Virus record (IMG/VR): IMGVR_UViG_3300028999_000002
Source: a virus
Taxonomy: Duplodnaviria > Heunggongvirae > Uroviricota > Caudoviricetes
DNA length: 51,967 nt
Direction: 5' to 3' (one strand)
A program made the translations under genes and the position numbers. The notes below the pieces were generated by a model. That model was not told the DNA's origin. It ran no database searches and was given only the letters and a program-made list of their open reading frames with translations. Within the stretch, counting starts at the first letter, position 1, and every line of letters begins with the position of its first letter. Shown piece by piece: positions 14,193 to 33,199 of this stretch.

Positions 14193-14203
14193 ACATCCCC
14201 CTT

Positions 14204-16004: not shown

Positions 16005-16061
16005 AAATCAGTTCCTTTCATTCAGAAATCAGTCAGGCCACCGCGGTGGCCTGATAACGTG

Positions 16062-16409
16062 TTACGGCAGCGCCGCGTGACTCAGGGCACTGCCGGCAAA
16101 GGCGTTGGCCTTTTTGTGTTCATCCACACTTTCAGGCCAGTGGATTGCCTCCGTCGCAAAGGTTCCCGACTTGTAATACGTCAGCGCCGTCTCTGTGCCT
16201 TCAAGCGGCAGTACCAGTATGCCAACCGCACTACCGGCTTTCTGTCCGTCCCAGACCACCAGTTTCCCGGTGGCTTCATCCAGCATCAGGGGCGTCAGTG
16301 CCGGTGTTGGCGAGGAAATCCCGCTGCTGCCTGTGGCGGTATGAGCCGGATCATTACCGGCAAAAATACGTACTTCCGCACGCTGTTCAGTGATGGTTTT
16401 CGTCACCAT
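16062..16409 (-). CDS. D: head decoration protein D
   Basis: 115 aa, lambda gpD-like (…DPAHTAT…LTPLMLD…KLVVWDG…YKSGTF…). Confidence 0.9.
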   Translation of the reverse strand: MVTKTITEQRAEVRIFAGNDPAHTATGSSGISSPTPALTPLMLDEATGKLVVWDGQKAGSAVGILVLPLEGTETALTYYKSGTFATEAIHWPESVDEHKKANAFAGSALSHAALP

Positions 16410-16445
16410 ATTGTAAAAACCTCCTATTGATGGTCAGCACTGACT

Positions 16446-17953
16446 TCATGGCATGGCCATGAGCATTTTCACGTCCGCATCACCGTCTGCTGACGTCTGT
16501 GCCACGCCACCCTGTACCGCTGCCGGTGAATGGTTCGCCATGAAATGTTCAAACATGGCGGTTGTGGATGCAGAGACCGGTTCTGCCTTACCTGATCCCG
16601 CAGCCAGCACAGCCCGGGCGCTCTCCACTGTCATTCCCGGGCAGGCAGCCAGCTGTTCAGCCTGCGCCTCAGCCCCTTTTGCCTCATCCAGTGCCATGAT
16701 CTGATCACGGAGTGATGGTCCGGCATCCGCCTGCGGTGAAGCAGCCAGGATCGGGCGGGCTTTTTCCACCGTCATCTCCGGCATCGCCGCCAGCGTTGCC
16801 GCCAGTTGTTCACGACCGTTCGCTTCTTCACACGCCATAATGCGATCGGCTTCACTCTGCGTGGATGCCACCGGCNNNNNNNNNNTGCCGCCGCGGCCAG
16901 AATCGCCCGGGCCTGTTCAACGCTCATGCCCTGTTGTCCTGCCAGCATCGTGGCAAGCTGTTCACGTCCTTTCGCTTCCTGGCATGTCAGGATCCCCATC
17001 ACTCGCTGGTTCTCCTGCGCGGCGGCTTCCGTTGCAGTTAATTGCGGCATAGTGCCTCCTCTGACATTACTGTTCAGCGCCGTGGCCATCACACTGATGG
17101 CATCCGACGCATTGATTAATTCATCCGCCAGCCCGGCCTCAATGCCGGACTGACCTTCAAAAACGGCAGCCTCTGTTCCCGTGACGGCATCAACAGACAG
17201 ACCGGTATACATCGCCACTTTTTCGGCAAACATCCGGCGCGCCGCATCAATCCGCTGCTGCATGTCCTGGCGAACCTCTGCCGGCAACGCTTCAAACTGA
17301 TTGCCATCCACCTTGTGCGCCCCTGAGTAAATCAGCGTGATATCCACACCGGCCTGCGCCAGATGACCGGCATAGCTGACATGGCTCATCATCACGCCAA
17401 TGGAGCCGATACGGGATGTCTGGGTAACCAGCCGTCGGGAGCAGGCCGACGCCAGCAGCATGGCTGCAGAACAGGCCGTGTCATTGCACAGTGCCCAGAC
17501 CGGCTTCTGCTGACGGAGGCGGTAAATCATGTCAGCGCAGTCAAACGCGCCGGCGGCCTGCCCGCCCGGACTGTCAATGTCCAGCAGTACGCCCCGCACC
17601 TGGCTATCCGCCATTGCCTGCTGAAGACAGGCGACAATGCCGTCATAGCCTGTCATTCCGGAAAATGGCCGCATACCACCCAGCCGGTGCACCAGCGTGC
17701 CGGTCACCGGCAGTACAGCAATACCGTTCACCACCCGGTAAACACGGGCCGGTCGTTTACCTCCGGCCATGTACTCGTCCGTTTCAGCCAGCATTCCGGG
17801 AGCATCAAACTGTACCTGCTGTTGTGGTACCGAAAGACTTGCTGCCCCCATCTCGCGCCCGAGCGCGCAAAAGAAAACCCGCGCATAGGCGGGCTCCAGA
17901 AGCAGCGGTTCATTGAATGCTGCGGCAATAATGTGTGAAAGATTACGTCTCAC
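16446..17953 (-). CDS. C: capsid assembly protease C with in-frame scaffold (Nu3-like) region; interrupted by an N10 assembly gap
   Basis: N-terminal 390 aa match lambda gpC (…AFNEPL.LEPAYARVFFCAL…, S49/ClpP-like); C-terminal region contains repeated Nu3-like motifs on both sides of the N run. Confidence 0.8.
16876..16885. other. assembly gap (10 N) inside the C/Nu3 repeat region
   Basis: Run of n characters. Confidence 0.99.
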
Positions 17954-18722
17954 GTGGTGTTGTCTCCTCTTCCGGCCTACGACTCTCCGCTATCTGCTGC
18001 TGATACGCCTGCTCTATCCACACCGGACGTGAGAGTCCGGCTTTTTGCCGCTCAGCAGATTCCCTGACCTGCTGGCGGAAAATGTCCTGATAATCCTCGC
18101 CCATCAGCGCCAGCTCTTTCTCATACGTGCTCAGTCCGGCCTCAATGCGCATCACTGATTCCTGGACTTCCTTGAGCCCGTCAATGGCCATTCTTCCGGC
18201 ACCAATCCACTCTGCCCGTGACCAGGCTGATCGCGCCTGATAAAAATCAAAACGTGCCCGTGGCGGACGAATAATCCCCCGAAGAAGTGCCTCTTCCAGC
18301 CAGCAGGAAAACATCTGCGTGGCCAGCCGGGCCGCAATAAATTTTCGCCGCCCCATAAAATAGCGCCACGACTCATTGGCGGAGGCGCGGGCACTTGAGT
18401 AACTGACCTTCGAGTAATCACGGGACAACTGTTCGTAGGAAACGCCAAGACCGGCGGCGATATACCGCAGCAGCGCCTGTTCAAGCGCAGAAAATCCATT
18501 GTCTGAATCCTGCGCAGTCTGTAGTTTCAGATCATCACCAGGGAAAAGGTGCGGAATTTTGACACCGCCCAGTGTCACGTTATTCGTGTCATACCAGCTG
18601 GAAAACTTCTCCAGAATATTAATAAGCGGATTATCCTTCTGCTCCTGTGGCGCGCCGGCGATATATTCAAAGGCCTTTTCGGTATCAAGTTCACTTTCAA
18701 TCGTCGCTGCATACATCGCCTT
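17943..18722 (-). pseudogene. B: portal protein B, C-terminal half (gene split by insertion of the element at 18723-29608)
   Basis: Translation matches lambda gpB from ...KAMYAATIESELD to the C-terminus; no N-terminal half upstream, replaced by non-coding satellite sequence. Confidence 0.9.
18710..18722. repeat. left copy of the 13-bp direct repeat (att core, plus-strand CATACATCGCCTT) flanking the inserted element
   Basis: Same 13-mer with one mismatch at 29609-29621, exactly at the two breakpoints of portal homology. Confidence 0.75.
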
Positions 18723-18796
18723 TATGAAAAGACAGGAAAAAATAAAATTTAAAAACAGTACATTACGAATGCTCAGACCTATCGTTTAAAGGAGTC

Positions 18797-18817
18797 GCAA
18801 TACACACTGCAATACAC
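18797..18817. repeat. two tandem GCAATACAC(A) repeats near the left end of the element
   Basis: gcaatacacactgcaatacac; same motif three times at 29434-29485 next to the integrase gene. Confidence 0.7.
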
Positions 18818-19159
18818 GATTATTTATAAGATGAGCGGCATCCGTCATAAAGCTGGTGGATGCTTTTTCTATGCATATATGCACAGTTTTAGTGGGCGTT
18901 AATGTCGATATAGGGATCCCCATATCGAGATTGGATACCTGGCTTTTTTCCGGTTAACCTTTAATCAGGCTGGTGGGCTTTACCTGTTTTGTATGAGTGG
19001 TCATCATGACCATGTCATAACAAAAACCCCATATTCGTGGTTTTTCTGTGTCGGGCTATTCTGTCGTTGCTGTGCTGATTTGGCTGGTGGGCTGAATCAT
19101 CATTACGGCGATGCAGCTATGTAGACGTTCCTGCCTCCTCAAATTGAGGATTGTGGAAG

Positions 19160-19284
19160 AATCAATGGGTTAGTCTTACTTTCCCGACATCCCCCAATGG
19201 GGGTTTTCGAAACAATCAATAGCTTAGGCTTACTTCCCCGATTTCCTGCATTGCAGGTTTTCGAAATAATCAATGGGTTAGGCC
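19160..19284. repeat. tandem ~55-bp repeats, each with a short GC hairpin followed by TTTTCGAAA
   Basis: Two full units plus a partial third; hairpins CCCCCAATGGGGG and CCTGCATTGCAGG; a third hairpin CCCCCAGTGGGGG at about 19365. Confidence 0.7.
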
Positions 19285-19531
19285 ATCGTGCAATTTTGCA
19301 CTTTGCCAGCCAGCGCAATGTCGCGTTATCAGTCCTCAGATGTGAGGGATGTAGCCAGCTTTTCCCCCAGTGGGGGATATCCAGCACCGACGGCTTAACT
19401 GTGCGTGCCAGCACAAGGTAGCCTTGAACTACTTACTGCATCCCATCTTACAGGCCGTGCCTTCCTGCTTAACTTTTTGCAATGCAACAAGTCAGCCAGC
19501 GCAATTTTGCGTTATCGGGAATATCAGCAAG

Positions 19532-19813
19532 TTACCGCCGCAATCGTTCCGGCTTCTTCCACTGGTAAGTATTTTTCGCGCTCTCCCTCCGTTGTTGAGA
19601 ACGGCGACGATATGCCAGCAACTCAAGGACTCTTGTTCGTATGTTGCGCATATCCACGCCGTTAAGCTCAATACCGTCACGGCGCATCACCTCAGCCACT
19701 ACACGCACATAATTATCTGCGGTCACGCTGTCCGGCTGCGTGGCCTGTTCGTCATGCTGCTTGCTGATTCCACAAGCACGGCGGATTAATCGCAGTATTT
19801 CGGATTCAGTCAT
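19532..19813 (-). CDS. hypothetical protein (satellite)
   Basis: 93-aa ORF downstream of the satellite Nu1-like gene, same strand; no recognisable family. Confidence 0.4.
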   Translation of the reverse strand: MTESEILRLIRRACGISKQHDEQATQPDSVTADNYVRVVAEVMRRDGIELNGVDMRNIRTRVLELLAYRRRSQQRRESAKNTYQWKKPERLRR

Positions 19814-19824
19814 AGCGTACTACG

Positions 19825-20367
19825 TTACTTATCTTTATTCGGCTGCAACTTATCCGGTACGTTTCCGGCAGTTTCCATCAGATAATCGGACAGCATCAGC
19901 GGTATGTTTTCGTCAAGTTTTGCGCATGCGTTACAGGCTCTGATAACTTCTTTTTTCAGTCCATCCAGCATAGACGGCTTCATGTCGGGAAACTTCCTTG
20001 TCATGGCAAGCGGCAGGCTGTCCATGATTGAAGAAATCTGACTCGCCAATTTTGAAAGCACGTATATACAAAACGCTGTATCAATAACGTCGCCGCGTTC
20101 GCGCTCGTTTTTAAGCTCCTGCGCCTCTGCCTGTGCTGTCAGCAATCTGATCCTGACTCGTAGGAGTTCATCATCATCAATCTCGCCTTTGTCGTCTGTA
20201 ATCTGGTTAATTGCATTGCTAACCCGATTGTCTATTACGCTGGCAACATCATAAAACGCCTCGCGGCCTTTACGTTCAACGGGAGTCACTCCCCACTTGT
20301 CGAACGCTGTCGCACTTACACGGCAGCTTTGCGCCATGTTTTTTTTGTTCATCAGGTGCGATTTCAT
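19825..20367 (-). CDS. Nu1-like terminase small subunit (satellite-encoded)
   Basis: C-terminal two-thirds align with lambda Nu1 (…RLLTAQAEAQELKNERERGDVIDTAFCIYVLSKLASQISSIMDSLPLAMTRKFPD…); N-terminal DNA-binding region divergent; start set at the ATG with a GGGGA SD. Confidence 0.8.
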   Translation of the reverse strand: MKSHLMNKKNMAQSCRVSATAFDKWGVTPVERKGREAFYDVASVIDNRVSNAINQITDDKGEIDDDELLRVRIRLLTAQAEAQELKNERERGDVIDTAFCIYVLSKLASQISSIMDSLPLAMTRKFPDMKPSMLDGLKKEVIRACNACAKLDENIPLMLSDYLMETAGNVPDKLQPNKDK

Positions 20368-20439
20368 CAATATCCCCACTTAAGTAATGTTTCAGGTTGG
20401 TGTATTGGCTTTATCTTTTCCTTTTTATTCATAGAGATA

Positions 20440-20530
20440 GAGCGAACAACAAAACCACCACCAGCACCCGAAAAAGGCTCATAAATAGCGAAAACCCGCG
20501 AGGTCGCCGCCCCGTAGCCTACCGGATCGC
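20440..20530 (-). other. satellite cos site (lambda-type cosN GGGCGGCGACCT at 20501-20512, with adjacent cosQ-like and cosB-like sequence)
   Basis: Minus strand reads GGGCGGCGACCTCGCGGGTTTTCGCTATTTATGA, matching the remembered lambda left cohesive end; directly upstream of the Nu1-like gene. Confidence 0.85.
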
Positions 20531-20568
20531 CGGAAAGGACCCGCCAGCCAGAACGGGCCCTAATTTCA

Positions 20569-20952
20569 TCAACCAATCAACTTATAGCGACCATCCCGTG
20601 CATTGCGACGTACACGCTCAATCTTGAGGCATAGCGCCGCATCTGGCTTTTTTGGGACAGGTACGCGGCAATATTCAGAAGATCGAGGAATATTGTTTAT
20701 CCAGTCGATCACTTCACTTAAATACCAGGCCTTACGCCCTTCCGTAACCTGTACGCGTTCGGGGAACTCTCCGCGAGCCTCAAGGTTTAGCAATGTGCGA
20801 CGGCTAAGGGTAGTAAGTTCCATCACCTGATTCATATCAACAAGGCGTTCACTTAAACGCATTTTGTCAGCAATAGCCTTTAATTCCTCTACTGCTGGAT
20901 CCGGATACATCATTTCGGCAATTGGCTTAAGGTCATTGTAATGATTCTGCAT
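20569..20952 (-). CDS. AlpA/excisionase-like HTH DNA-binding protein (satellite)
   Basis: C-terminal part resembles the AlpA/Xis-type HTH (…LSRRTLLNLEARGEFPERVQVTEGRKAWYLSEVIDWI…); lies between the D-like gene and cos. Confidence 0.45.
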   Translation of the reverse strand: MQNHYNDLKPIAEMMYPDPAVEELKAIADKMRLSERLVDMNQVMELTTLSRRTLLNLEARGEFPERVQVTEGRKAWYLSEVIDWINNIPRSSEYCRVPVPKKPDAALCLKIERVRRNARDGRYKLIG

Positions 20953-20963
20953 TGTATCCCCCT

Positions 20964-21305
20964 TTACACACGAGCCAGCGGCTGAACAGAAATACCTGAG
21001 CCAACAAACGCGGCAACCTTTGCCGACAGTTCTTTTACAGACTCAGGCCAGTTCAGAGCATCAACATTTAAAACACCTGTCTTATAAACCTGTGCCTGTG
21101 TTTTTTTCGCTGTGTCGATTTGTACAGCGGAAACATAAACCGCTTTACCTACGCTCGAACCATCCCATACCACCAGTGCACCTGTTGCATCTTCCTGCAT
21201 CAGTGGCGTAAATGCAGGAATTACCCCTTTATTAGCTGAAAATATCCCCAGCGTAGTCACCAGTGCTTCAGTGCCAGCCATGAGTTCAGTGTAATGAGTA
21301 GCCAT
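20964..21305 (-). CDS. head decoration protein D-like (satellite)
   Basis: 113 aa; shares TPLM…ATG.LVVWDG…YK(S/T)G…WPESV with the prophage D at 16062-16409. Confidence 0.75.
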   Translation of the reverse strand: MATHYTELMAGTEALVTTLGIFSANKGVIPAFTPLMQEDATGALVVWDGSSVGKAVYVSAVQIDTAKKTQAQVYKTGVLNVDALNWPESVKELSAKVAAFVGSGISVQPLARV

Positions 21306-21314
21306 TGCTCCCCC

Positions 21315-22361
21315 TTAGCCAATGCGAACGGTAACAAAACGATTGATGCGGGCCGGTATTGGCTGTGGTGCTGAATGTGTCTGCACATATTCAATAGCCG
21401 GATCACCAGGCACAATATAGTTTTTCGGTGCAAGTTCGGCTTTAGTCAGCCCCATTCGGATTAGCTCCGGATCCTGAATACCGCCATAGGCGACAATCCC
21501 CTGAAGAGCCGTATTGCCAAGCACCATCAAATCAGGATCAAGGAAATGTTTTTCTGTTCCGTCCTCGTCGGTATAACGCCCGCTGTAAACAACAATCGCA
21601 ACATCGCCCATATACCCTTTAAAACTCACCGAATCACCAAGGTCTTTAAGGGCCGTTTCCAGTTCGGAATTAGAACCACGACGGGTATCCAAAGCCTCTT
21701 TTATCGCTCTGAATGAACGGTATTTCTTCCATACATTACCACCCATAATGATGATATTAGTGACGCCCTCACTAAATTCTGCGTAGCTCTCAATATCATC
21801 ATTTGGATCAAAAGTTTCTTTATCCTTACCTGACCACTCAGTACCGCCAGACTGAGTGATGATATTTTGTGGTTTTATATTCCAGTCCAGCTCATAACGT
21901 TCAATACCATCGCCCTCAATGATATTTTTCCCCGTTGTGATTGCCTGAACAGCAAGCCATTCAATACGTGCACGAATAGCTTTAGCCTGATTTACAATCG
22001 CCTGTTTAACTTTAATATTACGCGCCCCAAAAGCATTGTATTGCTCAGGTGACACACCAGCAGGGCGCACAGCTAACTTATTTGGATCAATGCTGCTTTT
22101 CGGCTTCATATAACCTGGACGAATTGTTTTTGATTCGTATCCCTCATCTCGTGAAACTTTACTGCCCACCATAGGAGAGCAAAACGCCGCGATCGGGATA
22201 TTTGGATCGTCGATCGTATCAAGAATAATGTCTCTCGATTCAAACATTACCGAGCGAGTGAAAAACAAACTGGTAAACAACGCATTTAATTTTTTTTGCA
22301 CATCTTCAGCATTAGCCACCTGCACAAGCTGTGTAGGCGAATATAAATCAACCATACTCAT
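21315..22361 (-). CDS. major capsid protein E-like (satellite)
   Basis: Shares ITQSGGTEWS, LDTRRGSNSELETA, GDVAIVVYSG blocks with lambda gpE; start set at MSMVDLY by analogy with lambda MSMYTT (the next Met two codons on is equally possible). Confidence 0.85.
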   Translation of the reverse strand: MSMVDLYSPTQLVQVANAEDVQKKLNALFTSLFFTRSVMFESRDIILDTIDDPNIPIAAFCSPMVGSKVSRDEGYESKTIRPGYMKPKSSIDPNKLAVRPAGVSPEQYNAFGARNIKVKQAIVNQAKAIRARIEWLAVQAITTGKNIIEGDGIERYELDWNIKPQNIITQSGGTEWSGKDKETFDPNDDIESYAEFSEGVTNIIIMGGNVWKKYRSFRAIKEALDTRRGSNSELETALKDLGDSVSFKGYMGDVAIVVYSGRYTDEDGTEKHFLDPDLMVLGNTALQGIVAYGGIQDPELIRMGLTKAELAPKNYIVPGDPAIEYVQTHSAPQPIPARINRFVTVRIG

Positions 22362-22572
22362 CCTCTTTACATTCATTACAAATAATTGTGAATATATTCT
22401 ATTACCGATGTCTGCTATGCGAATACATGCAACCAAGTGCAATGTTGTATAAAATATGCCGTAACAACTTCAGTGCTGATAATTCGTGTTAATGTATTTA
22501 CTTCCTTTGGTCGGGATTTATGTAGCATGCCGGAAAATCTATTTTTTTCCGGCATCTTTTTGTTTGCAGAAT

Positions 22573-22995
22573 TTAAAACGGTATATTATCGCCGTACGGA
22601 TCATCATTCCCCGACTGTTGTTTTGCCCTGTTCAGTGCGTCAGTGGCCTGCCCCTGCTGGCCTTTTTTGCCGCCCGGTCGCGCCGTTCGCGCACTGATTA
22701 CGCTGTCTGCGATAACCTGCCAGCCCCGCCGAGTTTCGCCGTTCTGGCCTGTCCACTGGCTTACCTGCATGTTACCCGCCACGCTCACCAGTTCGCCTTT
22801 GTGGTGTTTTGCCAGTGCGTCGGCCTGTCTGCCAAACGCCAGGACGGATAACCACATCGTCGCCGTTCCGTCATCTGCCTGGCTGCACGGCAGGGGAACC
22901 GCCATACTCGCCATCGCCATTTGTGTCCCTTTGCTGGTGGTCTTTAACTGCGGGTCAGCCACCAGCCGCCCGTAAGCCGCTATCTGTGCTGTCAT
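22573..22995 (-). CDS. SSB-like single-stranded DNA-binding protein (satellite)
   Basis: 140 aa with an OB-fold-like N-terminus and the SSB-type acidic tail ending …DDPYGDNIPF. Confidence 0.55.
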   Translation of the reverse strand: MTAQIAAYGRLVADPQLKTTSKGTQMAMASMAVPLPCSQADDGTATMWLSVLAFGRQADALAKHHKGELVSVAGNMQVSQWTGQNGETRRGWQVIADSVISARTARPGGKKGQQGQATDALNRAKQQSGNDDPYGDNIPF

Positions 22996-23306
22996 GCTGT
23001 CTGCTCTCCGGTTTTAACATTGATGGTTGTCACCTGTTCCGCTTCGGCAATCTCCCGTTCTGTCAGCGTGGCAAAGTTTGCCGCTGCTGTGGTCATGAAT
23101 GCGCTTATCAGGTCGGGATGTTCCTTCGCGTATCCTGCCCGTGTGTGGTGGTCTATCGCTTTGATTGCCACCTTTAAGGAAAGCTCTGTCATGTCTAACG
23201 CTTTATATTTTGCCTGTGTTCTGTCTCTGCGAATTTTGGTCATTTGTCGCCCCTGATTCATGTTTTCGGCTGGCATGTTTGTTAAGTGATTTTTATGTAT
23301 GCGCAT
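22992..23306 (-). CDS. hypothetical protein (satellite)
   Basis: 104-aa ORF overlapping the SSB-like start by 4 nt; no recognisable family. Confidence 0.4.
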   Translation of the reverse strand: MRIHKNHLTNMPAENMNQGRQMTKIRRDRTQAKYKALDMTELSLKVAIKAIDHHTRAGYAKEHPDLISAFMTTAAANFATLTEREIAEAEQVTTINVKTGEQTA

Positions 23307-23329
23307 TTATTTTCACCCCCCCCTCGTTT

Positions 23330-23585
23330 AAAAAGTTTTTAGTTGTGCCTCCCCCCCTCTACCCATCTACCCGAATGCTCATCATGTCAGTAATAGCGCG
23401 GCTTTCAGCGGGTAGATAGCTTTTTGACTCCTCTACCTGCCGTCTACCCTGCTACCTGAAACTGATAAAATCAGGTAGAAGAGGTAGAGAGCTTTTATTA
23501 GCCTTCTACCTAGCCCTATACCCACTTATCATGTTGAATAATATGCGTTTATTTTGTTCAGGTAGATGGGGTAGATGGCTTTTAC
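23330..23585. repeat. iteron array (GGTAGA / TCTACC hexamers in both orientations, C-runs): putative satellite replication origin
   Basis: About 11 copies of the hexamer in 250 bp immediately 3' of the primase gene. Confidence 0.65.
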
Positions 23586-23591
23586 AAAAAA

Positions 23592-25346
23592 TTATAAAAA
23601 CGCGTCGCAATCGTCTGTTGTAATTGCGTTGGTCTGCGTTACTCCCTTAACTTTTCGCGTAATATATTCATGCCCGTAAACTTTCGCCGCTGGCTTCATG
23701 GCCTTGCTGAACTCAGCCACGTTTAGCGGTTTGCTCCTGCCCGCGTATGCCATAAACGCCAGATAGACGCGGTAAAGGCTGTTCCTGGTCGTGTACTTCA
23801 CTGAATCACCACCGCCACCCATCATCAGGCCGCGCGCTTCCTCCAGAAAATTCAGGAACTGGCAAAACTCAATAACCGGATCCGTCTGTTGCTTTATTGC
23901 CAGTGCTTCATCACCGTCACGCTGTTCCAGTAGTAAAGCCCGTGCCTTCTCAGGGTCGGTAAAGTTCGCCAGCAATCGGCGGATAATAACGGGGATTTCA
24001 GCCGCAATCTTTTCCGGTAGCTCCCTGTCTTTTTCGGCCTCACTGACGATATTGTCGAAACGGAAAATCACGCGACGACGTGCCACACCTCCGGCCCGTT
24101 CGGTGAATATCATCGGGTTGTTGTTGGTCGCCAGCACCACCGCCCTGATTACCGCCGTGAAACGCTTTTCATATTTCGGGTTAATTTCCACGGGGTCGCC
24201 GCCTGTGATTTTCTTGATGCCCGTTCCTTCGCCTGTATATTTCGGCTGGTCAGCCAGGACGATAAGACGACTCCCGACAACCTGCGCACGTCCACCAGCA
24301 TCATCAAGCGATGTCATTTCAGCGCTTACCGTGTTCTGTTTCCCTGCCAGAAGGCTGGCTATGTGTGTGAATGTACTTTTACCGCTCCCGCCGTCTCCGG
24401 TGGCCTCAATAAACATCTGCCAGTCGTACCGGTTCGCCATAATCATGTACAGCGCGGCACATATACGCATCATCTTGCGCGGGTCTTTTCCGGCTGCGTG
24501 CTCAAGCCATTTATGAAAGTTTGGCGCGTTATCGCGGATGTTCTCCCCTGGTGCTGGTGGCGTGTACTCAATGCCGTTGTGCGTGGTGATCCAGTTCTCC
24601 GGCGTGTGCGGGGAAAATTCCCCCGTTTTCAGGTCAAGCGCACCATTGGCGAACGGCAGCAAATCGCCAGACGGCTCGCCCATTGGTTCGGCAATAACTT
24701 TTAACGCTTCCACGGCGTTATTGATTACGCGCTTGCTGAAAGTGGCCCTGTGCTCTGAATAGATCGCCACCATTTCGCGGCTAAGTTCCATTGTGCTGAC
24801 CGGACACCATACCCCGCCGCGCCATACGTGAACGATTTCACTTTCAGGATGTACGCAAACGCCATCAAAGCGATCGGCAAGCAACTGCGCGCGCTCACTG
24901 TCCGCCATCTGCGAAAGTTGCGCCTTTTGCTTTACCGGAAGCTCAATGACCAGACCATCAGAAAGATTCTGGCGTTCACGGGCCAGATATTCGCGCCAGT
25001 TCTGCACCTCCTGGCCGTGCATACCCTCAGGATAAAAATTTGCATCCTGTACGCCTGCTGCCGCCAGCTTCTGACCAATCGCCTTTATCATTACAGGCGC
25101 AAGATATCCGGCCCTGTATATGCGTGCTGATTTTCGGCCTTCCGGCACAATTTGCAGATTATCCAGTTCGGATAGCTGCTGCTCCCCAAGCCACACAGGA
25201 GGCTCATTATCTCCGGCCATACGCGCATCATGTTCCTGCCATTGTTTCGCGTGTGCCCAGGCATCACTACCCGCAAAAATAATGACTTCTGTTCCTTTGT
25301 GTTTTATGCCGCGTGACTGCTGTTTTACGTTCGGTGCCAGTTTCAT
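23592..25346 (-). CDS. primase / replication initiator with P-loop NTPase (D5-like helicase) domain (satellite pri-rep)
   Basis: 584 aa with Walker A …ATGDGGSGKST… and the overall architecture of phage/satellite primase-helicases. Confidence 0.8.
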   Translation of the reverse strand: MKLAPNVKQQSRGIKHKGTEVIIFAGSDAWAHAKQWQEHDARMAGDNEPPVWLGEQQLSELDNLQIVPEGRKSARIYRAGYLAPVMIKAIGQKLAAAGVQDANFYPEGMHGQEVQNWREYLARERQNLSDGLVIELPVKQKAQLSQMADSERAQLLADRFDGVCVHPESEIVHVWRGGVWCPVSTMELSREMVAIYSEHRATFSKRVINNAVEALKVIAEPMGEPSGDLLPFANGALDLKTGEFSPHTPENWITTHNGIEYTPPAPGENIRDNAPNFHKWLEHAAGKDPRKMMRICAALYMIMANRYDWQMFIEATGDGGSGKSTFTHIASLLAGKQNTVSAEMTSLDDAGGRAQVVGSRLIVLADQPKYTGEGTGIKKITGGDPVEINPKYEKRFTAVIRAVVLATNNNPMIFTERAGGVARRRVIFRFDNIVSEAEKDRELPEKIAAEIPVIIRRLLANFTDPEKARALLLEQRDGDEALAIKQQTDPVIEFCQFLNFLEEARGLMMGGGGDSVKYTTRNSLYRVYLAFMAYAGRSKPLNVAEFSKAMKPAAKVYGHEYITRKVKGVTQTNAITTDDCDAFL

Positions 25347-25642
25347 TTTTTACCTCTGAATCCGTTAATCATGGTTTTCATTTTCTGGATATTTCCCCAC
25401 GCTTTTTCCCTGCTGATGGGCTTACTGCGGGGTGCGGCATATACCAGGGAAAAATCACGCCGGAACTGATAAACAGGCATCACGCAGTCATAGCTATACC
25501 CCTCACGGCGGTAAGTGATGCGCCGTTCTGCCACGCCTTTAATCGTTACCGTGCCGCCGTATTTATCGCGGTAAATATCGCCGTTCATAAATTCAGGTCG
25601 AGCGGGGCCGCTGGCAATAAAGCCAGAATTTTTCATTTCCAT
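25343..25642 (-). CDS. hypothetical protein (satellite early operon)
   Basis: 99-aa ORF overlapping the primase start by 4 nt. Confidence 0.45.
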   Translation of the reverse strand: MEMKNSGFIASGPARPEFMNGDIYRDKYGGTVTIKGVAERRITYRREGYSYDCVMPVYQFRRDFSLVYAAPRSKPISREKAWGNIQKMKTMINGFRGKK

Positions 25643-25659
25643 ATTATTTATTCCTCGAC

Positions 25660-25881
25660 TTAACTCGACTTATTTGATAGCAGGGCACTATTTATTGCGT
25701 CATTGAGTTTTTCTGCTGATTCATCAATAAGTGACAACAGGCCATAAGCAATATTTGCATCTTCATTGTCATTTATGCAATCAAGCCACATATTTAATAT
25801 TGCTTTTGCTGAATTATTTAAAGTTAATGAACTTTCTGCACATGCTAACAATTTAAAAAAGACTTCCCGTTCTGTATTCAT
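25660..25881 (-). CDS. hypothetical small protein (satellite early operon)
   Basis: 73-aa ORF in a tightly packed co-directional series. Confidence 0.35.
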   Translation of the reverse strand: MNTEREVFFKLLACAESSLTLNNSAKAILNMWLDCINDNEDANIAYGLLSLIDESAEKLNDAINSALLSNKSS

Positions 25882-26073
25882 TTAATCCCCCACCAGCTTA
25901 CTTTCTTCCTCAATCAAAAAACTAGCGACACTTCCCGAAAGACGCGCCAGTAGGCTCGCCAGTGCGGATATATCAGCATCTGTAATTTTGTTCGGGTATA
26001 CCTCAAGAAGGCGGCAAATAATTTCTGTCTGGTGCGCACGTTCAGCGGCTTCGTGTAATGTAATTTCCTGCAT
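25882..26073 (-). CDS. hypothetical small protein (satellite early operon)
   Basis: 63-aa ORF abutting its neighbours. Confidence 0.35.
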   Translation of the reverse strand: MQEITLHEAAERAHQTEIICRLLEVYPNKITDADISALASLLARLSGSVASFLIEEESKLVGD

Positions 26074-26258
26074 TAATGCACCTCTTTTAATTCATACACT
26101 GCTGAAATAATGACTTGTGATAAGCCATATTCTGATGATTCGCTTCTCACCGCAGCAATAGCCGTCTGAACATTAACAGCCTTCACATTCTGAGCGATAC
26201 CAATTGTGTGGCCTATTGGGTTAACAGCTCGGGCAAATACACGGAAGGTTTTAAGCAT
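26073..26258 (-). CDS. hypothetical small protein (satellite early operon, first gene)
   Basis: 61-aa ORF; stop overlaps the next start. Confidence 0.35.
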   Translation of the reverse strand: MLKTFRVFARAVNPIGHTIGIAQNVKAVNVQTAIAAVRSESSEYGLSQVIISAVYELKEVH

Positions 26259-26540
26259 GACTCACTCCCTGGCGGATTTTTGCAGCGAATACAGCAACAC
26301 AACCGGACGGGCAACGGCTACGCGCTTCGCGTTCCGTCCAGGCGGTTACGTGGATGATTTGAGATTCTCCGGCACTCAGTGCCAGAAAACGCCACACAAA
26401 GGCCGTTTGTGTGTGTACAAGGTGTGGTATATGATTTACAGCAACCATAACGGCTCCTAGTTTACGTTGTTGGTTAGACGCCCCGTATGTGTTCCCAGCA
26501 CTGCGGGGCGTTGCTCTTTGTATTTCAACAATCCTTTCGG

Positions 26541-26618
26541 TGTGTTTCATGTTATGAGCGCATGAAACACACGTCAAGGCTTTTTGTATTTCTTTTTTTG
26601 TGTATACTGAAACACACC
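26541..26618. promoter_or_regulatory. divergent promoter/operator region of the satellite with an 11-bp perfect inverted repeat (TGTGTTTCATG n9 CATGAAACACA) and a third half-site
   Basis: IR at 26541-26571; additional TGAAACACACC at about 26608; sits between divergent minus- and plus-strand gene sets. Confidence 0.55.
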
Positions 26619-26638
26619 GATGATTAGGAGTTTCAGAA

Positions 26639-26944
26639 ATGGCAACGGCTAACAAAAACGCAAAATCACAACTGACAACTGTCAGAGTCCCACTAGATGT
26701 TATGCAAGGGATGGAATCCGTTAAGCTGGACGGTGAAAGCAATGCCGGATTTATCGTAACCGCCATGCGCGGAGAAATAGCCCGCCGCCAAGCAGAAGGC
26801 AGCGGAGAAAATCCCCTTGTGTCGTCACTGGATGCCCTGGCTAAGGTCGAACAAATCGGCATCAAAGCAGCCGAGGAGATCGGGCAACTCGTCACCGTCG
26901 CGCGTGAAGAACTCCAGCGACGCAAGGTCAAAGAGCATGAATAG
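26639..26944 (+). CDS. hypothetical small protein, candidate regulator (satellite)
   Basis: 101-aa ORF with AGGAG SD, transcribed divergently from the early operon just downstream of the operator-like IR. Confidence 0.45.
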   Translation: MATANKNAKSQLTTVRVPLDVMQGMESVKLDGESNAGFIVTAMRGEIARRQAEGSGENPLVSSLDALAKVEQIGIKAAEEIGQLVTVAREELQRRKVKEHE

Positions 26945-27001
26945 CCAATATCAGCGCCATAGTTTGAGGAACGCAGGCGCATTGCTTTACAGGACAGCAC
27001 C

Positions 27002-27181
27002 ATGAGCGACACAGAATCAACCAAAACACCATCACCAACTCGTAAGAGACGACGCAAAAATATAGCGCATGAACATGAATCAGAAAGATTCGCACCTTGT
27101 TCGTTTGCTCTTGAGAAATTCCTTAAAGAGCACAGGAAAAAGCTCTCGTTGCAAACCTTGGAACGAACCAAATCTGACTGA
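27002..27181 (+). CDS. hypothetical small basic protein (satellite)
   Basis: 59-aa ORF found by manual translation (below the ORF-track cut-off); Lys/Arg-rich N-terminus. Confidence 0.25.
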   Translation: MSDTESTKTPSPTRKRRRKNIAHEHESERFAPCSFALEKFLKEHRKKLSLQTLERTKSD

Positions 27182-27277
27182 TCACATTGCCCACCAGCCG
27201 CAAATGTGGCATTGTTGGTGATGCTTTTGTTTTCCCTTGTTCCCACTGGCGACCCTTTTGCGGTCGCCTTTGTTTTG

Positions 27278-27856
27278 TCACTGAATGCGGTTACCAAAGT
27301 AAAACTCAGGCTGATATTCACGTATCAGCGTTTTTTCTTCTTCCTCCAGCTCACGCTTTTTGCGCTTACATGCCTGTAGCTCCCTCCCCTTCTCGCTGGC
27401 ACTTATTTGATATTGCTCTTTACGGCGGGAAAAATCCTGTAATGCACCCCACGGGATACCATAAGTCCCCGTTTTTCTGATACCTGGTATCACATTTCTG
27501 AATACCCAGTTACTGAAACGATGAGCAAATGTGCCAGGCGTCGTTGCTTTGCGGCTGCGGGCTATTAGTTTGTAGAAACCTGACTCAGAGATAATTCTCA
27601 TATTCTGATTTCCTCCTGGGGTGTAAGTTAAATTTACTCCCTTTTCATCATCATCAAGCATCTGCAACGCCGTACGCGAATTGGTTAGTTCCAGCGCAGC
27701 ACAAACATCTTTTGCAACAAACCACGGATCGCCGTTCAGATACACCACACGAACGTTCACACTATCAAAGCGCAGAACGACGAGATCACGAATATCGCAG
27801 AATTTTTTCACTGGACGAGCGTACCCCTTGCCCGTCACGGCAATATTTTTATTCAT
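27278..27856 (-). CDS. Bro-N domain protein (antirepressor-like)
   Basis: N-terminal …VVYLNGDPWFVAKDVCAALEL… is a typical Bro-N motif. Confidence 0.7.
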   Translation of the reverse strand: MNKNIAVTGKGYARPVKKFCDIRDLVVLRFDSVNVRVVYLNGDPWFVAKDVCAALELTNSRTALQMLDDDEKGVNLTYTPGGNQNMRIISESGFYKLIARSRKATTPGTFAHRFSNWVFRNVIPGIRKTGTYGIPWGALQDFSRRKEQYQISASEKGRELQACKRKKRELEEEEKTLIREYQPEFYFGNRIQ

Positions 27857-27912
27857 CGCGTTTTTACCTTATAGACAAAAAACCCCTCGTGATGAGGGGC
27901 ATTATTTACTGG

Positions 27913-28170
27913 TTATTGCTGTTTTGTTTTTCCAGGTTTCCACCCAGGATGCCACTCACCACGGATCCATGCCTGAACCTCTGAAAGTCGATACCCTGCA
28001 GCACGTTCACCGATCTTGATACGTCGCGGGAATTTACCTGCCTGCTCCATTTTCCAGCGTGTTGAGTTTGCCAGCGTGGTAAGTGCTATGCACTCTTTTT
28101 CACGAATGAACCGATCAATGTCCTTCATTGTGCGCAAATCGTTTTCATCAACAAGAGAATAAATTGCCAT
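27913..28170 (-). CDS. alpA: AlpA-family transcriptional regulator
   Basis: 85 aa, AlpA-type HTH (…RWKMEQAGKFPRRIKIGERAAGYRLSEVQAWI…), immediately downstream of int as in P4-like and PICI elements. Confidence 0.75.
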   Translation of the reverse strand: MAIYSLVDENDLRTMKDIDRFIREKECIALTTLANSTRWKMEQAGKFPRRIKIGERAAGYRLSEVQAWIRGEWHPGWKPGKTKQQ

Positions 28171-28171
28171 A

Positions 28172-29413
28172 TCACACCACCTCTTTATTAAGCTCGATAA
28201 CGTTGTTGTTAAATCCTGCTATCGTATTAAGGTAATTAACCCACATATTAAGCACCTCAAGTTTTTTCTTTATATGCCTGCTTTTATTGTAAACACCAGC
28301 AACCCCTTTCACTTTATGACCTAAAAGAAGTTCGACAATATAAGGATCCGCCCCCATATCATTAAGCGTAGTGGAAAATGTGCGCCTGAAATCATGTATG
28401 CACCACAAGCCATTAGTATCATGACCAAGACGCCTGCATATTCTGTTTGCAGCCCCTGTTATTGTCGCCCTTTGCAAAGCACAACCGACAACATAACCGC
28501 GATTTTTTGTTTCTGCGTAAAGATTAACGATCCATTGTTTTATTCCGTCAGGAACAGGCCTTACTATAGCCTCCTTGTTTTTGCTGTGCTCTTTTGGGAC
28601 TGTCCATACCCAGTTTTTTAAATCCCATTCGTCCCAGGTGGATAGCCTCGCCTCCTGCTGTCGGCAACCAAACACCAGGCAGATAACCATTATTCTTCGG
28701 TTATATATTGATGACAGAGTTAGCAAATTATTACCGTAAGCATAAGACCATACATCAGCGGTTTCATTGATATTAAGAACGCGATCCCTTATACCGGATG
28801 AGCGCCCGACATAACTTACGTTAATATCTCCAAAGGGATCGCACGCGATGTATTGCCTGACGCGACAAAAACGCAACGCCTGTTTGATATCAAGAAAAAT
28901 TGCACCAGACATAACAGGCGCATTTTTTTTGATCCTGTCAAAGACGGTAAGCCATGTGTGTAATTTGCACTGTTCTATAGCCATATCACCGATATAGGGG
29001 AAGATATGCTTTTCAAATCGTTTTATTAAATATTCATGCTCTTTTCTGGCTGTTGTGGCGTGATTGTCGTACCAGTAAAACAGCGCATCCCTTACGGTCA
29101 CTGGTTGCATAGTTTTTTCGGCAGCAAGTTTTATTTGCCTGCGGGGGTCCAGATTTTCAGCCAGCCATTCACGGCACTGATCACGCATGCGCCTGGCCGT
29201 TGCAAGAGACATGTCAGGATAGCGACCAAGTGTAAGCCATACCGGAGGGGATTCCCTGCCACCAAGACGATAGTAAAAAACAAAGCTGATCCCCCCAACC
29301 ATGCTTACACGCACAGACAACCCGCGCCCATCCGCTATTGTTTTTTGTTTGTCCTGCCGTTTTCCGACAAGACTCTTTAACAGTTTGTCACTGAGTTTGT
29401 TTTCAATAGCCAT
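28172..29413 (-). CDS. tyrosine integrase, P4-type (satellite)
   Basis: 413 aa; P4-family integrase N-terminal domain and C-terminal catalytic region; 5' end about 200 bp from the right junction. Confidence 0.9.
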   Translation of the reverse strand: MAIENKLSDKLLKSLVGKRQDKQKTIADGRGLSVRVSMVGGISFVFYYRLGGRESPPVWLTLGRYPDMSLATARRMRDQCREWLAENLDPRRQIKLAAEKTMQPVTVRDALFYWYDNHATTARKEHEYLIKRFEKHIFPYIGDMAIEQCKLHTWLTVFDRIKKNAPVMSGAIFLDIKQALRFCRVRQYIACDPFGDINVSYVGRSSGIRDRVLNINETADVWSYAYGNNLLTLSSIYNRRIMVICLVFGCRQQEARLSTWDEWDLKNWVWTVPKEHSKNKEAIVRPVPDGIKQWIVNLYAETKNRGYVVGCALQRATITGAANRICRRLGHDTNGLWCIHDFRRTFSTTLNDMGADPYIVELLLGHKVKGVAGVYNKSRHIKKKLEVLNMWVNYLNTIAGFNNNVIELNKEVV

Positions 29414-29433
29414 TAAAAGCCCTCAAGAGATTT

Positions 29434-29485
29434 GCAATACACACCCATCCCGATCGCCAATTTGCAATACACATTGCAATACACA
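29434..29485. repeat. three GCAATACACA repeats between the integrase start and the right att core
   Basis: gcaatacacac … gcaatacaca ttgcaatacaca; same motif as at 18797-18817. Confidence 0.7.
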
Positions 29486-29561
29486 AAACCGCGAAAAACT
29501 GGAAGGGTGATGAACGGTCATCAAAAGCATGGAAAACGACATTCCAGACGCAGCAAGGGTT

Positions 29562-30434
29562 TCAGTGGAGTTGGCGAACGATGCGGGCAACTACGGTGAG
29601 ATGATAGACATAAATCGCCTTCACTATGGCCGACTGAAGCTGTGTTGCCTGCAGGGAATCGAGCATCTTCAGCCGTTCCATGACGCTGTAAAACTGATTA
29701 GCCCCACGGGTCTGCCCGTCCTCCACCGGCTCGAAAATATGCAGCATGGCCGGACGCCCGGTGGGAAGTTCACGCGGGATCCGTTCCCATCGTCCACTAC
29801 CAGAGAACGGAAAATCATCCTCACAGATATGGTACGCGACGGCACGGCCATATCGATCGACCTCCACACCGGCCCGCAGAAAACGGTTCCCCATACCGTG
29901 TCCAGGCGTGTCCACCCGTTTCGGACTCACGGCTTTAAAACGCGTACGGAATAACTGCGTGGTTTCCGTATCCCAGACCGGCTGCACAAAGATTTCGCCG
30001 TTAAACGCATGAACGCCCACACCTTCACGGATAAATTCCGTGAACGTGCGTTTTCCTTCCACGTCGATCTCGCCAAACATCCCTTCGGCGTATTCCGACC
30101 AGGCCGCCTCCACCTCATCGACAAAGCTTTTTGCTGCGGTCTCCCGCATCCCCAGCCAGCGCCAGTTCGGACGGTAGCTGATCAGAAACATATGCCCGAC
30201 AATGTGATCCTTATGCAGAGCCACCGCATTAGCCGCTATTCCGTTATTGCGCACCAGATCATCTGCCCGGGCATTCCCCAGACGCAACGCGGGCAGCAGG
30301 GCCGCATCGGCACTCTGCGCCGGTGGCAACCACTCAGCCATTTGCCCGCCAAATCCTGCACCGCCCCCGTTGTAGCTGAGACTCTCACGAAGCGGAACGC
30401 CGTTCACATCAATCAGGACAGGCGTTCGTTTCAT
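29562..30434 (-). pseudogene. B: portal protein B, N-terminal half (ends in 15 element-derived codons after the junction)
   Basis: Translation matches lambda gpB up to …LQSAIVKA(I)Y, then diverges into element sequence and stops. Confidence 0.9.
29609..29621. repeat. right copy of the 13-bp direct repeat (att core, plus-strand CATAAATCGCCTT)
   Basis: Portal homology ends exactly here; one mismatch to the left copy. Confidence 0.75.
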
Positions 30435-30637
30435 AACCTCACTCCCAGCGGACGACGGCGACACCGGGTTGTCCCCAGTACCGACTCCGCATCATTGATC
30501 GCCCGGTTAAGCTCATCCAGAGAAGCCGCCGTATATTCAATTCTGCGACCATCTTTCTGGACAGACACCACCCGTTTACCGGTTAATAAATCAAGGCGCG
30601 CCTGACGCAGCGCCTGCAGTTCAGCGACTGTAACCAT
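30431..30637 (-). CDS. W: head-tail joining protein W
   Basis: 68 aa, lambda gpW-like (…LLTGKRVVSVQKDGRRIEYTA…). Confidence 0.9.
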   Translation of the reverse strand: MVTVAELQALRQARLDLLTGKRVVSVQKDGRRIEYTAASLDELNRAINDAESVLGTTRCRRRPLGVRL

Positions 30638-32549: not shown

Positions 32550-33067
32550 CGATCCACCCGCCCACGTTTTCACCGGCCTTAGCTGCAACATTGGAGGCTT
32601 TCGCGATTTCAGTTTTCACCACATCAAGGTGTGATGGTGAAATGTCCGGATATTTACGCTGTAATGTCAACGGCACACGCACAAGTATCCCCGAAATCTC
32701 CTGTGCCACACGTTGCAGAATGAAGGTAAACAGTTCAGTTTCCAGCACTACTCCGTCTTCACGGGCATTTTTCAGTTCCTGCGCATCTGCCTGCGCTTTT
32801 GTGAGCCGGTAGCGTTCATAGTCAATGGTGCCGGGTTGTAAATCTGACTCCGCTGCCGCACGCAAATCGTCCAGTTCTTTGCGGAGCTTTTCGTTTTCGA
32901 TATCAGTTTCCCTCTGCGCATACCACTGAATTGCCATGGCAGTATCAAATACAGATTCAATGCCCTTACTACCTTTGGAGGCGCAAGGGAGTCCCTGACT
33001 GCCAGCGTTCAATCGTCCGCGGGTCCACGTTGAAAATTTCGGCAAGCCTCTTTTTATTAACCTTCAT
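32521..33067 (-). pseudogene. Nu1: terminase small subunit Nu1, frameshifted in this sequence
   Basis: ATG at 33067 opens [32 protein letters not shown]-stop (lambda Nu1 N-terminus); homology continues in another frame (…[39 protein letters not shown]…) to the stop at 32521. Confidence 0.8.
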
Positions 33068-33199
33068 GAAAACAACCCATTATCAAATACAAGGCCCGAC
33101 ATGAAAACGCCAGAAAAAGGCATTTTCGGACACTTTCATGTCGGACCTTTACGGATGCAATATTAAAAAAAAACAAAAAGTTATATTCGAGAAGTACCG

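What the first reader, a model, noticed from the sequence alone, without database searches (positions are those of the whole stretch)
18710..29621. Satellite-like element integrated inside the prophage portal gene, flanked by a 13-bp direct repeat
The lambda-like portal gene B is split into an N-terminal half (29562-30434) and a C-terminal half (17943-18722), both on the minus strand and both still matching lambda gpB; joined they give about 534 aa, close to lambda's 533. The break falls within the same codon stretch (…IVKA M/I Y…), and the 13-mer AAGGCGAT(G/T)TATG is present at both junctions. The 10.9 kb between them carries a P4-type integrase next to the right junction, AlpA, Bro-N, primase-helicase, iterons, SSB, and capsid/packaging genes. 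Precise excision would restore an intact portal reading frame (Met or Ile at one position). A satellite living inside an essential structural gene of its likely helper would couple helper virion production to satellite excision; I cannot confirm from memory whether this arrangement has been described.
Basis: partly seen in the sequence, partly recalled or inferred. Interest (0 to 1): 0.92.

Follow-up and report, generated by a model that had tools for sequence, protein, structure and literature searches.

The report
Known satellite embedded in prophage portal gene
A 10.9 kb phage satellite really does sit inside the portal gene of a phage-21-like prophage and would restore that gene exactly on excision, but this "helper-embedded PICI" and this very insertion site were published in 2023.

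Summary
The lambda-family portal gene is split at 18710-18722 and 29609-29621 by a 10,886-bp element. Removing 10,899 bp in silico gives a 530-aa portal identical at 530/530 residues to phage 21's portal.

The element carries Int, AlpA, Bro-N, an Icd-like gene, DUF4222, a P4/D5-type primase with iterons, SSB, gpE- and gpD-like capsid genes, an HTH regulator, a small terminase and its own cos site. All key genes are co-oriented with the helper late operon.

It is not new. Tommasini, Mageeney and Williams (NAR Genom Bioinform 2023, PMC10111431) described helper-embedded PICIs (HE-PICIs) at 14 sites in lambdoid late genes. One site is B:Phage_portal_2:241, with identity block AAGGCGAT. Their supplementary att sequences match the element side of both window junctions. 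Their diagnostic doubled motif TGTATTGCnnnnTGTATTGC occurs exactly twice here, at the published spacing.

At least 62 of 5,426 complete E. coli genomes carry the same portal-element junction, in divergent portals.

Excision on induction was shown experimentally only for the capsid-gene relative 11capE. For this element it is inferred.

Verdict: real, correctly interpreted, already known, low residual novelty.

The parts
17943..18722 (-). C-terminal half of the helper portal gene (lambda gpB / phage 21 gp4 cognate)
   Evidence: Pfam Phage_portal_2 profile positions 238-354. 100% nucleotide identity to phage 21.
18710..18722 (-). Downstream att junction, on the late-zone side of the satellite. 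Core AAGGCGATGTATG, of which AAGGCGAT is the perfect identity block.
   Evidence: Identity block 'aaggcgat' in Supp File 1 of PMC10111431.
18797..18816 (-). Doubled HE-PICI attP arm motif TGTATTGCAGTGTGTATTGC
   Evidence: Zero mismatches. Lies 81 bp from the centre of the 13-mer core. The paper gives 81 +/- 2 bp.
19160..19283 (.). 54-bp tandem repeat (2.3 copies) in the roughly 800-bp non-coding 3' end of the satellite. Function unknown.
   Evidence: No CDS is annotated here in the 99.9%-identical RefSeq copies.
19532..19813 (-). Conserved hypothetical protein (93 aa)
   Evidence: phrog_1561, E = 1.2e-55, function unknown.
19825..20379 (-). Satellite small terminase subunit (Nu1-related)
   Evidence: Pfam Phage_Nu1 C-terminal part. 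phrog_57 over the full length. Only the C-terminal 91 aa align with helper Nu1, at 45% identity.
20467..20543 (-). Satellite cos site (cosQ/cosN region). cosN GGGCGGCGACCT lies at 20501-20512.
   Evidence: 85.7% identity to the helper cos at 33211-33287. Exact cosN 12-mer. cosB has diverged.
20569..20952 (-). AlpA/HTH_17-type regulator in the late zone
   Evidence: Pfam Phage_AlpA. phrog_2790.
20964..21305 (-). Head decoration protein, gpD homologue
   Evidence: Pfam HDPD. 45% identity to the helper D protein over 77 aligned residues.
21315..22355 (-). Major capsid protein, gpE homologue
   Evidence: Pfam Phage_cap_E, E = 3.8e-41. 43% identity to the helper E protein. The RefSeq CDS is 1041 nt.
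22573..22995 (-). Single-strand DNA-binding protein
   Evidence: Pfam SSB.
23347..23584 (.). Putative replication origin: many GGTAGA(n)(n) iterons in both orientations, just downstream of the primase gene
23592..25346 (-). P4/D5-type primase-helicase
   Evidence: Pfam D5_N, DUF5906 and Pox_D5.
25343..26448 (-). DUF4222 protein, three small conserved ORFs and an Icd-like cell-division inhibitor
   Evidence: Pfam DUF4222. PHROG matches. RefSeq annotation of identical copies.
26639..26944 (+). YlcI/YnfO-family gene, the only annotated gene on the opposite strand
   Evidence: RefSeq annotation. ORF list.
27278..27856 (-). Bro-N domain protein (anti-repressor-like), forming the 'Bro zone'
   Evidence: Pfam Bro-N. 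phrog_2593 anti-repressor, E = 3.8e-85.
27913..28170 (-). AlpA (excisionase / transcription factor)
   Evidence: Pfam Phage_AlpA, E = 5.4e-14.
28172..29413 (-). Tyrosine integrase (P4/PICI type)
   Evidence: Pfam Arm-DNA-bind_3, Phage_int_M (just below its gathering score) and Phage_integrase. 54% full-length identity to the 11capE integrase.
29464..29483 (-). Second doubled attP arm motif TGTATTGCAATGTGTATTGC
   Evidence: Zero mismatches. Lies 132 bp from the centre of the 13-mer core. The paper gives 132 +/- 2 bp.
29609..29621 (-). Upstream att junction, on the integrase side. Core AAGGCGATTTATG.
29622..30434 (-). N-terminal half of the helper portal gene. As integrated, the reading frame runs on into the satellite to a stop at 29562.
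   Evidence: Pfam Phage_portal_2 profile positions 2-242. Translation. 99.9% identity to phage 21.
32521..33287 (-). Helper Nu1 gene and helper cos (cosN at 33245-33256)

Best explanation
The insert at 18723-29608 is a helper-embedded phage-inducible chromosomal island (HE-PICI) of the published site group B:Phage_portal_2:241. Its host is a phage-21-like lambdoid prophage.

Shown here:
- It interrupts the portal gene at an 8-bp identity block (AAGGCGAT) without supplying a replacement gene end.
- It is co-oriented with the late operon.
- It has the four-zone PICI layout: Int/AlpA, Bro, replication, late.
- It has the HE-PICI-specific doubled arm motifs at the published spacing.
- It has its own cos site and small terminase.
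- It occurs at the same codon of divergent portals in many genomes.

Inferred, by analogy with the experimentally induced relative 11capE:
1. After SOS induction the whole composite excises and replicates.
2. Q-dependent late transcription reads from Nu1-A-W-B' into int-alpA.
3. Int plus AlpA excise the satellite by crossover within AAGGCGAT. This recreates an intact portal gene with Met at the polymorphic position.
4. The satellite replicates from its iteron origin, using its primase and SSB.
5. Its small terminase, whose C-terminal part resembles helper Nu1, recruits the helper large terminase gpA to the satellite's own cosB/cosN.
6. Satellite DNA is packaged into heads built with the helper portal and protease/scaffold, possibly with the satellite's own gpE and gpD homologues, and joined to helper tails.

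Helper virion production is therefore delayed until the satellite has left.
For: Gene split and exact restoration.

Gene content and orientation.

Published description of HE-PICIs and of this site: PMC10111431. The supplementary att sequences of B_Phage_portal_2_241 members are identical to the window on the element side. They include phage-21-type portal flanks.

Doubled motif TGTATTGCnnnnTGTATTGC: exactly two copies, zero mismatches, co-oriented. They lie 81 and 132 bp from the core centre, 213 bp in total as published.

Integrase: 54% identical over its full length to the 11capE integrase. The SSB-capsid-D-HTH block is 91% nucleotide-identical to 11capE over 2.7 kb.

Recurrence: the junction is found in at least 62 of 5,426 complete E. 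coli genomes. Overall junction identity of about 82% implies portal halves far more divergent than the near-identical element half. Of the 40 listed element-carrying records, 39 appear in the junction list.

cos and terminase.

No terminator-like site lies on the minus strand between the portal N-half and int.
Against: There is no experimental evidence for this element. Induction, excision and att-site quantification were done only for 11capE, and even there no virions or plaques were recovered.

Read-through from the late promoter, use of the satellite's capsid genes and the partnership between the satellite small terminase and helper gpA are inferences.

Some copies are clearly dead. The second copy in VL7S7 is truncated by IS911.

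The left end of the prophage lies outside the window, so full helper competence is not established.
Confidence: 0.9

Rival explanations
1. The element is an inert fossil. A satellite once integrated and permanently inactivated the prophage, and neither partner is now mobile. On this reading the host has a locked, domesticated prophage that carries sitABCD and iss.
For: The paper notes that many HE-PICI helpers look truncated. VL7S7 carries an IS911-truncated remnant. No virions were obtained even for 11capE.
Against: The two portal halves are still 530/530 identical to the functional phage 21 portal. All satellite ORFs are intact. Copies 99.5-99.9% identical sit in portals of divergent prophages in unrelated strains, which implies recent site-specific movement. 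The late region is colinear with phage 21 at 97.7-99.9% identity.
Confidence: 0.07
2. The split portal is an assembly artefact or a chimeric contig, so the two fragments are not really interrupted in vivo.
Against: The same junction is present in at least 62 independently assembled complete genomes. Both junctions are annotated as partial portal pseudogenes flanking the element in EC28 and Ch1. The att anatomy, with core and arm motifs at fixed spacing, is that of a site-specific recombination product.
Confidence: 0.01
3. The element is a P4-like satellite or a capsid-forming PICI that landed in the prophage by chance through off-target integration. On this reading it has no dedicated tropism for late genes.
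For: It has a P4-type integrase, primase, AlpA and an Icd-like gene, plus its own capsid genes.
Against: The insertion is at the same codon in at least 62 genomes and in several divergent portal types. The attP arm motif is reported as specific to HE-PICIs. No Psu, Sid or Delta domains were found among the ORFs scanned, and no C4/isrK RNA. There is no portal, protease or large terminase gene, as a cf-PICI would need.
Confidence: 0.02

Closest known systems
HE-PICI site group B:Phage_portal_2:241 (Tommasini, Mageeney & Williams 2023, PMC10111431)
   Same: Same target codon in the Phage_portal_2 profile and same 8-bp identity block AAGGCGAT. Element-side att sequences are identical. It has the same roughly 11 kb size, the same arm motif and spacing, and E. 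coli helpers at icd or tRNA-Arg.
   Different: Nothing essential. This is another copy. The helper here is almost phage 21 itself in its late region. That is the minority portal type in the paper's list (Eco12180.12 and Eco14761.12), and those entries carry slightly different element variants.
[quoted passage not shown]
   Same: Same architecture. The SSB-capsid-D-HTH block is 91% nucleotide-identical over 2.7 kb. The integrase is 54% identical. It has the same doubled arm motif.
   Different: Different target gene (E, codon 80 of the profile, against portal, codon 241). 11capE is described as lacking terS and carries HEPN and DUF262 genes at its 3' end. This element carries a small terminase and an unknown ORF there. 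Only 11capE has induction data.
EcCICFT073-type Gram-negative PICIs
   Same: Int-AlpA-Bro-primase-late layout, lambdoid cos-type helpers and cos-based hijacking (paper text).
   Different: Those elements sit in chromosomal genes and interact with the helper only in trans. This one is embedded in cis within a helper late gene.
Satellite P4 (helper P2)
   Same: P4-family integrase, primase-helicase, AlpA-like regulator, Icd-like gene and a roughly 11 kb genome. Unit length is about a quarter of the helper genome here, against about a third for P4 and P2.
   Different: No Psu, Sid or Delta domains were found among the ORFs scanned, and no C4/isrK immunity RNA was detectable. The helper is lambdoid. 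The element integrates in the helper, not at a tRNA gene.
Regulated gene integrity / 'active lysogeny' elements (B. subtilis skin in sigK, Listeria phi10403S in comK)
   Same: An integrative element splits a gene without supplying a replacement end, and its excision reconstitutes the gene at a defined time. The paper draws this parallel.
   Different: Here the gated gene belongs to another mobile element, the helper phage. The gating is presumed to serve the satellite rather than the cell.

Membership tests
HE-PICI (helper-embedded PICI) | Integrated inside, and disrupting, a late gene of a lambdoid prophage, with no replacement gene end in attP | tested here: met
   The portal is split at profile positions 238-242. 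The truncated N-half runs into 15 unrelated codons and a stop. The intact gene is regained only by deletion.
HE-PICI (helper-embedded PICI) | Key satellite genes (int, alpA, primase) co-oriented with the interrupted late gene | tested here: met
   All are on the minus strand, like the portal and the rest of the late operon.
HE-PICI (helper-embedded PICI) | Doubled motif tgTGTATTGCantgTGTATTGCa at 81 +/- 2 bp upstream and 132 +/- 2 bp downstream of the attP centre, co-oriented | tested here: met
   Exactly two copies in 52 kb, zero mismatches, at 18797-18816 and 29464-29483. Both are on the minus strand, 81 and 132 bp from the core centre. Definition taken.
HE-PICI (helper-embedded PICI) | Integrase belongs to the clade around the 11capE integrase | tested here: met
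   54% identity over the full length, E = 3e-170. The element-side att sequence is identical to published members that the paper's tree places in the clade. No tree was built here.
HE-PICI (helper-embedded PICI) | Four ordered zones: Integration (Int, AlpA), Bro, Replication (primase, SSB, DUF5906), Late | tested here: met
   Gene order is Int, AlpA, Bro-N, then primase/SSB, then capsid E, D, HTH and the small terminase.
HE-PICI site group B:Phage_portal_2:241 | Identity block AAGGCGAT at about codon 241 of the Pfam Phage_portal_2 profile | tested here: met
HE-PICI (helper-embedded PICI) | Precise excision after helper induction, restoring the late gene | not testable with these tools
   Shown only for 11capE, by qPCR and deep sequencing. 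Here there is only the in-silico restoration.
P4-like satellite | Psu, Delta and Sid capsid-size and transactivation genes, and a CI/C4 immunity RNA | tested here: not met
   No such Pfam domains among the 17 element ORFs scanned. No Rfam match at E <= 0.1 over 17500-31000.
Capsid-forming PICI (cf-PICI) | Complete own head module: portal, protease/scaffold, major capsid, head-tail connectors, and large and small terminase | tested here: not met
   Only gpE-like, gpD-like and small-terminase genes are present. There is no portal, protease or large terminase.

The most novel reading that the evidence does not exclude
The most novel reading left open concerns how this subgroup is packaged, which has not been studied.

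The satellite has a full-length small terminase of its own that shares only its C-terminal part with helper Nu1. It has a cos site with cosQ/cosN like the helper's but a private cosB. It also has its own gpE and gpD homologues. Yet it has no portal gene, so it depends on the very portal gene it interrupts.

This would make satellite excision a self-imposed checkpoint for its own encapsidation as well as the helper's. It would also mean a packaging-redirection mechanism (own small terminase plus helper gpA) different from the Rpp mechanism of EcCICFT073.

Four unit lengths (43,596 bp) equal 101.5% of the phage 21 genome. Tetramer packaging into helper-size heads is therefore an alternative to small capsids.
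Probability: 0.35. Interest if true: 0.4.

Novelty: already known. Interest (0 to 1): 0.22.

Why it matters
A satellite that lives inside an essential structural gene of its helper gates helper virion assembly in cis and rides the helper's replication and late transcription. That is an unusually intimate form of hyperparasitism.

It is, however, already documented. The 2023 paper maps 491 HE-PICIs at 14 late-gene sites, including this exact site.

The value of this instance is practical. The helper's late region is nearly identical to the classical, well-annotated phage 21. A carrier of this composite, or phage 21 itself as an empty-site helper, could give the virion-level experiments that failed for 11capE.

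Tried and rejected
- Rfam scan of 17500-31000 at E <= 0.1 for P4-type C4/isrK immunity RNAs: no match.
- PADLOC scan of the satellite's unknown ORFs and of the helper moron at 36708-39100: only DarG at 50699-51940, outside the element.
- PDB sequence search with the satellite small terminase, looking for an Rpp-like or Nu1 structure: nothing significant.
- Search for the exact source genome among complete E. coli assemblies: none covers the whole window. EC28 matches the element and junction at 100%, FEX669 the left arm at 98.3% and S87 the right arm at 99.9%. The helper is therefore a mosaic not present in that collection.
- The 356-aa ORF at 26251-27321 was rejected as spurious. It has no Pfam hit and overlaps the annotated Icd-like and YlcI genes.
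- Misassembly, chance repeat, P4-like and cf-PICI readings were rejected (see rival explanations and membership test).
- Literature search for later experimental work on HE-PICIs found only citations of the 2023 paper.


Full report
**Observation**

The window carries a lambdoid late operon on the minus strand. Two ORFs match the lambda-family portal profile. The ORF at 29562-30464 covers Pfam Phage_portal_2 positions 2-242, and the ORF at 17943-18716 covers positions 238-354.

The 13-mer AAGGCGAT(G/T)TATG lies at both break points, at 18710-18722 and 29609-29621 on the minus strand. About 0.21 matches are expected by chance at up to one mismatch.

Phage 21 (OL657228.1) supplies an empty site. 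Its portal region equals the left flank, then CATACATCGCCTT, then the right flank of the window. Deleting 10,899 bp in silico yields a 530-aa ORF identical at 530/530 residues to the phage 21 portal.

The two fragments are therefore halves of one gene with no decay since the insertion. The restored residue would be Met. The perfect identity block is the 8-bp AAGGCGAT.

**Anatomy of the insert (18723-29608, 10,886 bp)**

Reading along the minus strand, the element carries:
- a tyrosine integrase with an arm-binding domain (28172-29413)
- AlpA (27913-28170)
- a Bro-N anti-repressor-like protein (27278-27856)
- a YlcI/YnfO gene on the opposite strand
- an Icd-like gene, three small conserved ORFs and a DUF4222 protein
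- a D5/P4-type primase-helicase (23592-25346)
- an iteron field of GGTAGAnn repeats (23347-23584)
- SSB
- a gpE-like major capsid protein, 43% identical to the helper's
- a gpD-like decoration protein, 45% identical over the aligned region
- an AlpA/HTH regulator
- a cos site
- a small terminase
- a conserved unknown ORF
- about 800 bp of non-coding DNA with a 54-bp tandem repeat

There is no portal, protease, large terminase, tail or lysis gene.

The satellite cos has the exact lambda/21 cohesive-end 12-mer GGGCGGCGACCT at 20501-20512. The helper's copy is at 33245-33256. The cosQ/cosN flanks are conserved, but the cosB region is unrelated and shorter.

The satellite small terminase matches a phage small-terminase family over its full length (phrog_57). 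It resembles helper Nu1 only over its C-terminal 91 residues, at 45% identity.

**Helper**

With the insert removed, window 1-18722 is colinear with phage 21 positions 22356-3637 at 97.7% identity. Window 29609-33256 matches phage 21 positions 3649-1 at 99.9%, and the lysis region matches at 99.1%.

The early region is mosaic. It ends with xisE and intE, and in the closest relative it lies next to icd. The helper is thus a phage-21-like prophage whose late operon looks intact apart from the portal.

**Recurrence**

Fifty-three complete E. coli genomes carry at least 80% of the element, most at 99.5-99.9% identity.

A 600-bp probe across the portal-element junction is covered by at least 80% in 62 of 5,426 complete genomes. 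Every listed hit lies under a 'phage portal protein' annotation. Most have about 82% overall identity, which implies portal halves far more divergent than the near-identical element half.

Of the 40 element-carrying records listed, 39 appear in the junction list. EC28 and Ch1, which have different terminase, capsid and protease alleles, both show partial portal pseudogenes on each side of the element.

This excludes misassembly and chance. It shows a dedicated site specificity for one codon of the portal gene.

**Comparison with what is known**

A literature search found Tommasini, Mageeney and Williams, NAR Genomics and Bioinformatics 2023 (PMC10111431). They describe helper-embedded PICIs (HE-PICIs). 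[quoted passage not shown] Their Supplementary File 1 gives 'aaggcgat' as the identity block for that group. Their attL and attR files each hold 76 labelled occurrences of the group. The element-side sequences there are identical to the window's junctions. Two entries, Eco12180.12 and Eco14761.12, have the phage-21-type portal flank seen here.

The paper reports a motif specific to HE-PICI attP sites: a doubled tgTGTATTGCantgTGTATTGCa lying 81 +/- 2 bp upstream and 132 +/- 2 bp downstream of the attP centre. In the window this doubled motif occurs exactly twice, with zero mismatches and both copies on the minus strand. The copies are at 18797-18816 and 29464-29483, which is 81 and 132 bp from the centre of the 13-mer core.

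The integrase is 54% identical over its full length to that of the founding element 11capE. The SSB-to-HTH block is 91% nucleotide-identical to 11capE over 2.7 kb.

Every testable defining feature of the family and of the site group is met. P4-like membership fails, because there is no Psu/Sid/Delta and no C4/isrK RNA. cf-PICI membership fails, because there is no portal, protease or large terminase.

**Mechanism**

Shown by sequence:
- gene interruption without a replacement end
- co-orientation with the late operon
- no terminator-like site on the coding strand between the portal N-half and int
- att anatomy typical of tyrosine-recombinase products
- the satellite's own origin, cos site and small terminase

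Inferred from the 11capE induction experiment and the authors' model:
1. The composite excises and replicates.
2. Late transcription reads into int-alpA.
3. The satellite excises late and precisely, restoring the portal gene.
4. The satellite is packaged using helper proteins.

The C/A polymorphism in the core lies outside the 8-bp block and segregates as expected for a crossover within AAGGCGAT. Excision should therefore regenerate the phage 21 sequence exactly.

My own added inference is that the satellite small terminase pairs with helper gpA through its Nu1-like C-terminal part and directs cutting to the satellite's private cosB.

The composite would be about 125% of the phage 21 genome length. 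By the roughly 10% insert limit the paper cites for lambda, it should be too long to package.

Four satellite units, at 43,596 bp, equal 101.5% of the phage 21 genome. Either small capsids built from the satellite's gpE and gpD homologues or tetramers in full-size heads are conceivable. None of this is tested.

**Verdict**

It is an additional copy of a published element type at a published site. Novelty is 'already known'.

Residual interest lies in experimental tractability, because the helper late region is essentially that of phage 21, and in the unstudied packaging module of this subgroup.

Noticed in passing
window 19160-19283 (within the non-coding stretch 18723-19531): A 54-bp tandem repeat (2.3 copies, 80% match) lies in the roughly 800-bp gene-free 3' end of the satellite, between the arm motif and the last ORF. 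It has no Rfam match and no counterpart in 11capE. Function is unknown.
   Followed up: partly
window 50699-51940 (-), beyond intE at 49361-50488: A macro-domain protein matches DarG (PADLOC E = 6.6e-58). In the relative S87 it is followed by DarT and then icd. A DarTG toxin-antitoxin/defence pair therefore sits between the prophage integrase and icd.
   Followed up: partly
window 36708-39100 (+): A two-gene moron on the opposite strand lies between the Q antiterminator and the holin. It encodes a 'nucleoid-associated protein' (391 aa) and a 404-aa hypothetical protein. Neither hits PADLOC. It could be an uncharacterised defence or lysogenic-conversion cassette.
   Followed up: partly
window 1-760: The left end of the window aligns with the sitD region of phage 21, so the helper appears to carry the same sitABCD metal-transporter cargo as phage 21. 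The iss/bor gene lies at 34779-35120.
   Followed up: partly
L009 (E. coli VL7S7, NZ_CM177009.1 305180-331779): This genome holds a full copy of the element elsewhere. It also holds a second, decayed copy in another prophage's portal, cut off by IS911 after the HTH regulator. That prophage also has an IS1 in a head-tail joining gene and an internal stop in gpJ. It is an example of an 'abandoned' HE-PICI.
   Followed up: partly
window 20380-20640 versus 33046-33380: The satellite and helper share cosQ/cosN almost exactly but have unrelated cosB regions. The satellite small terminase aligns with helper Nu1 only over its C-terminal 91 aa. This resembles the classical lambda/21 terminase-specificity swap.
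   Followed up: yes
window 18723-29608: Four satellite unit lengths (4 x 10,899 = 43,596 bp) equal 101.5% of the phage 21 genome (42,931 bp).
   Followed up: no
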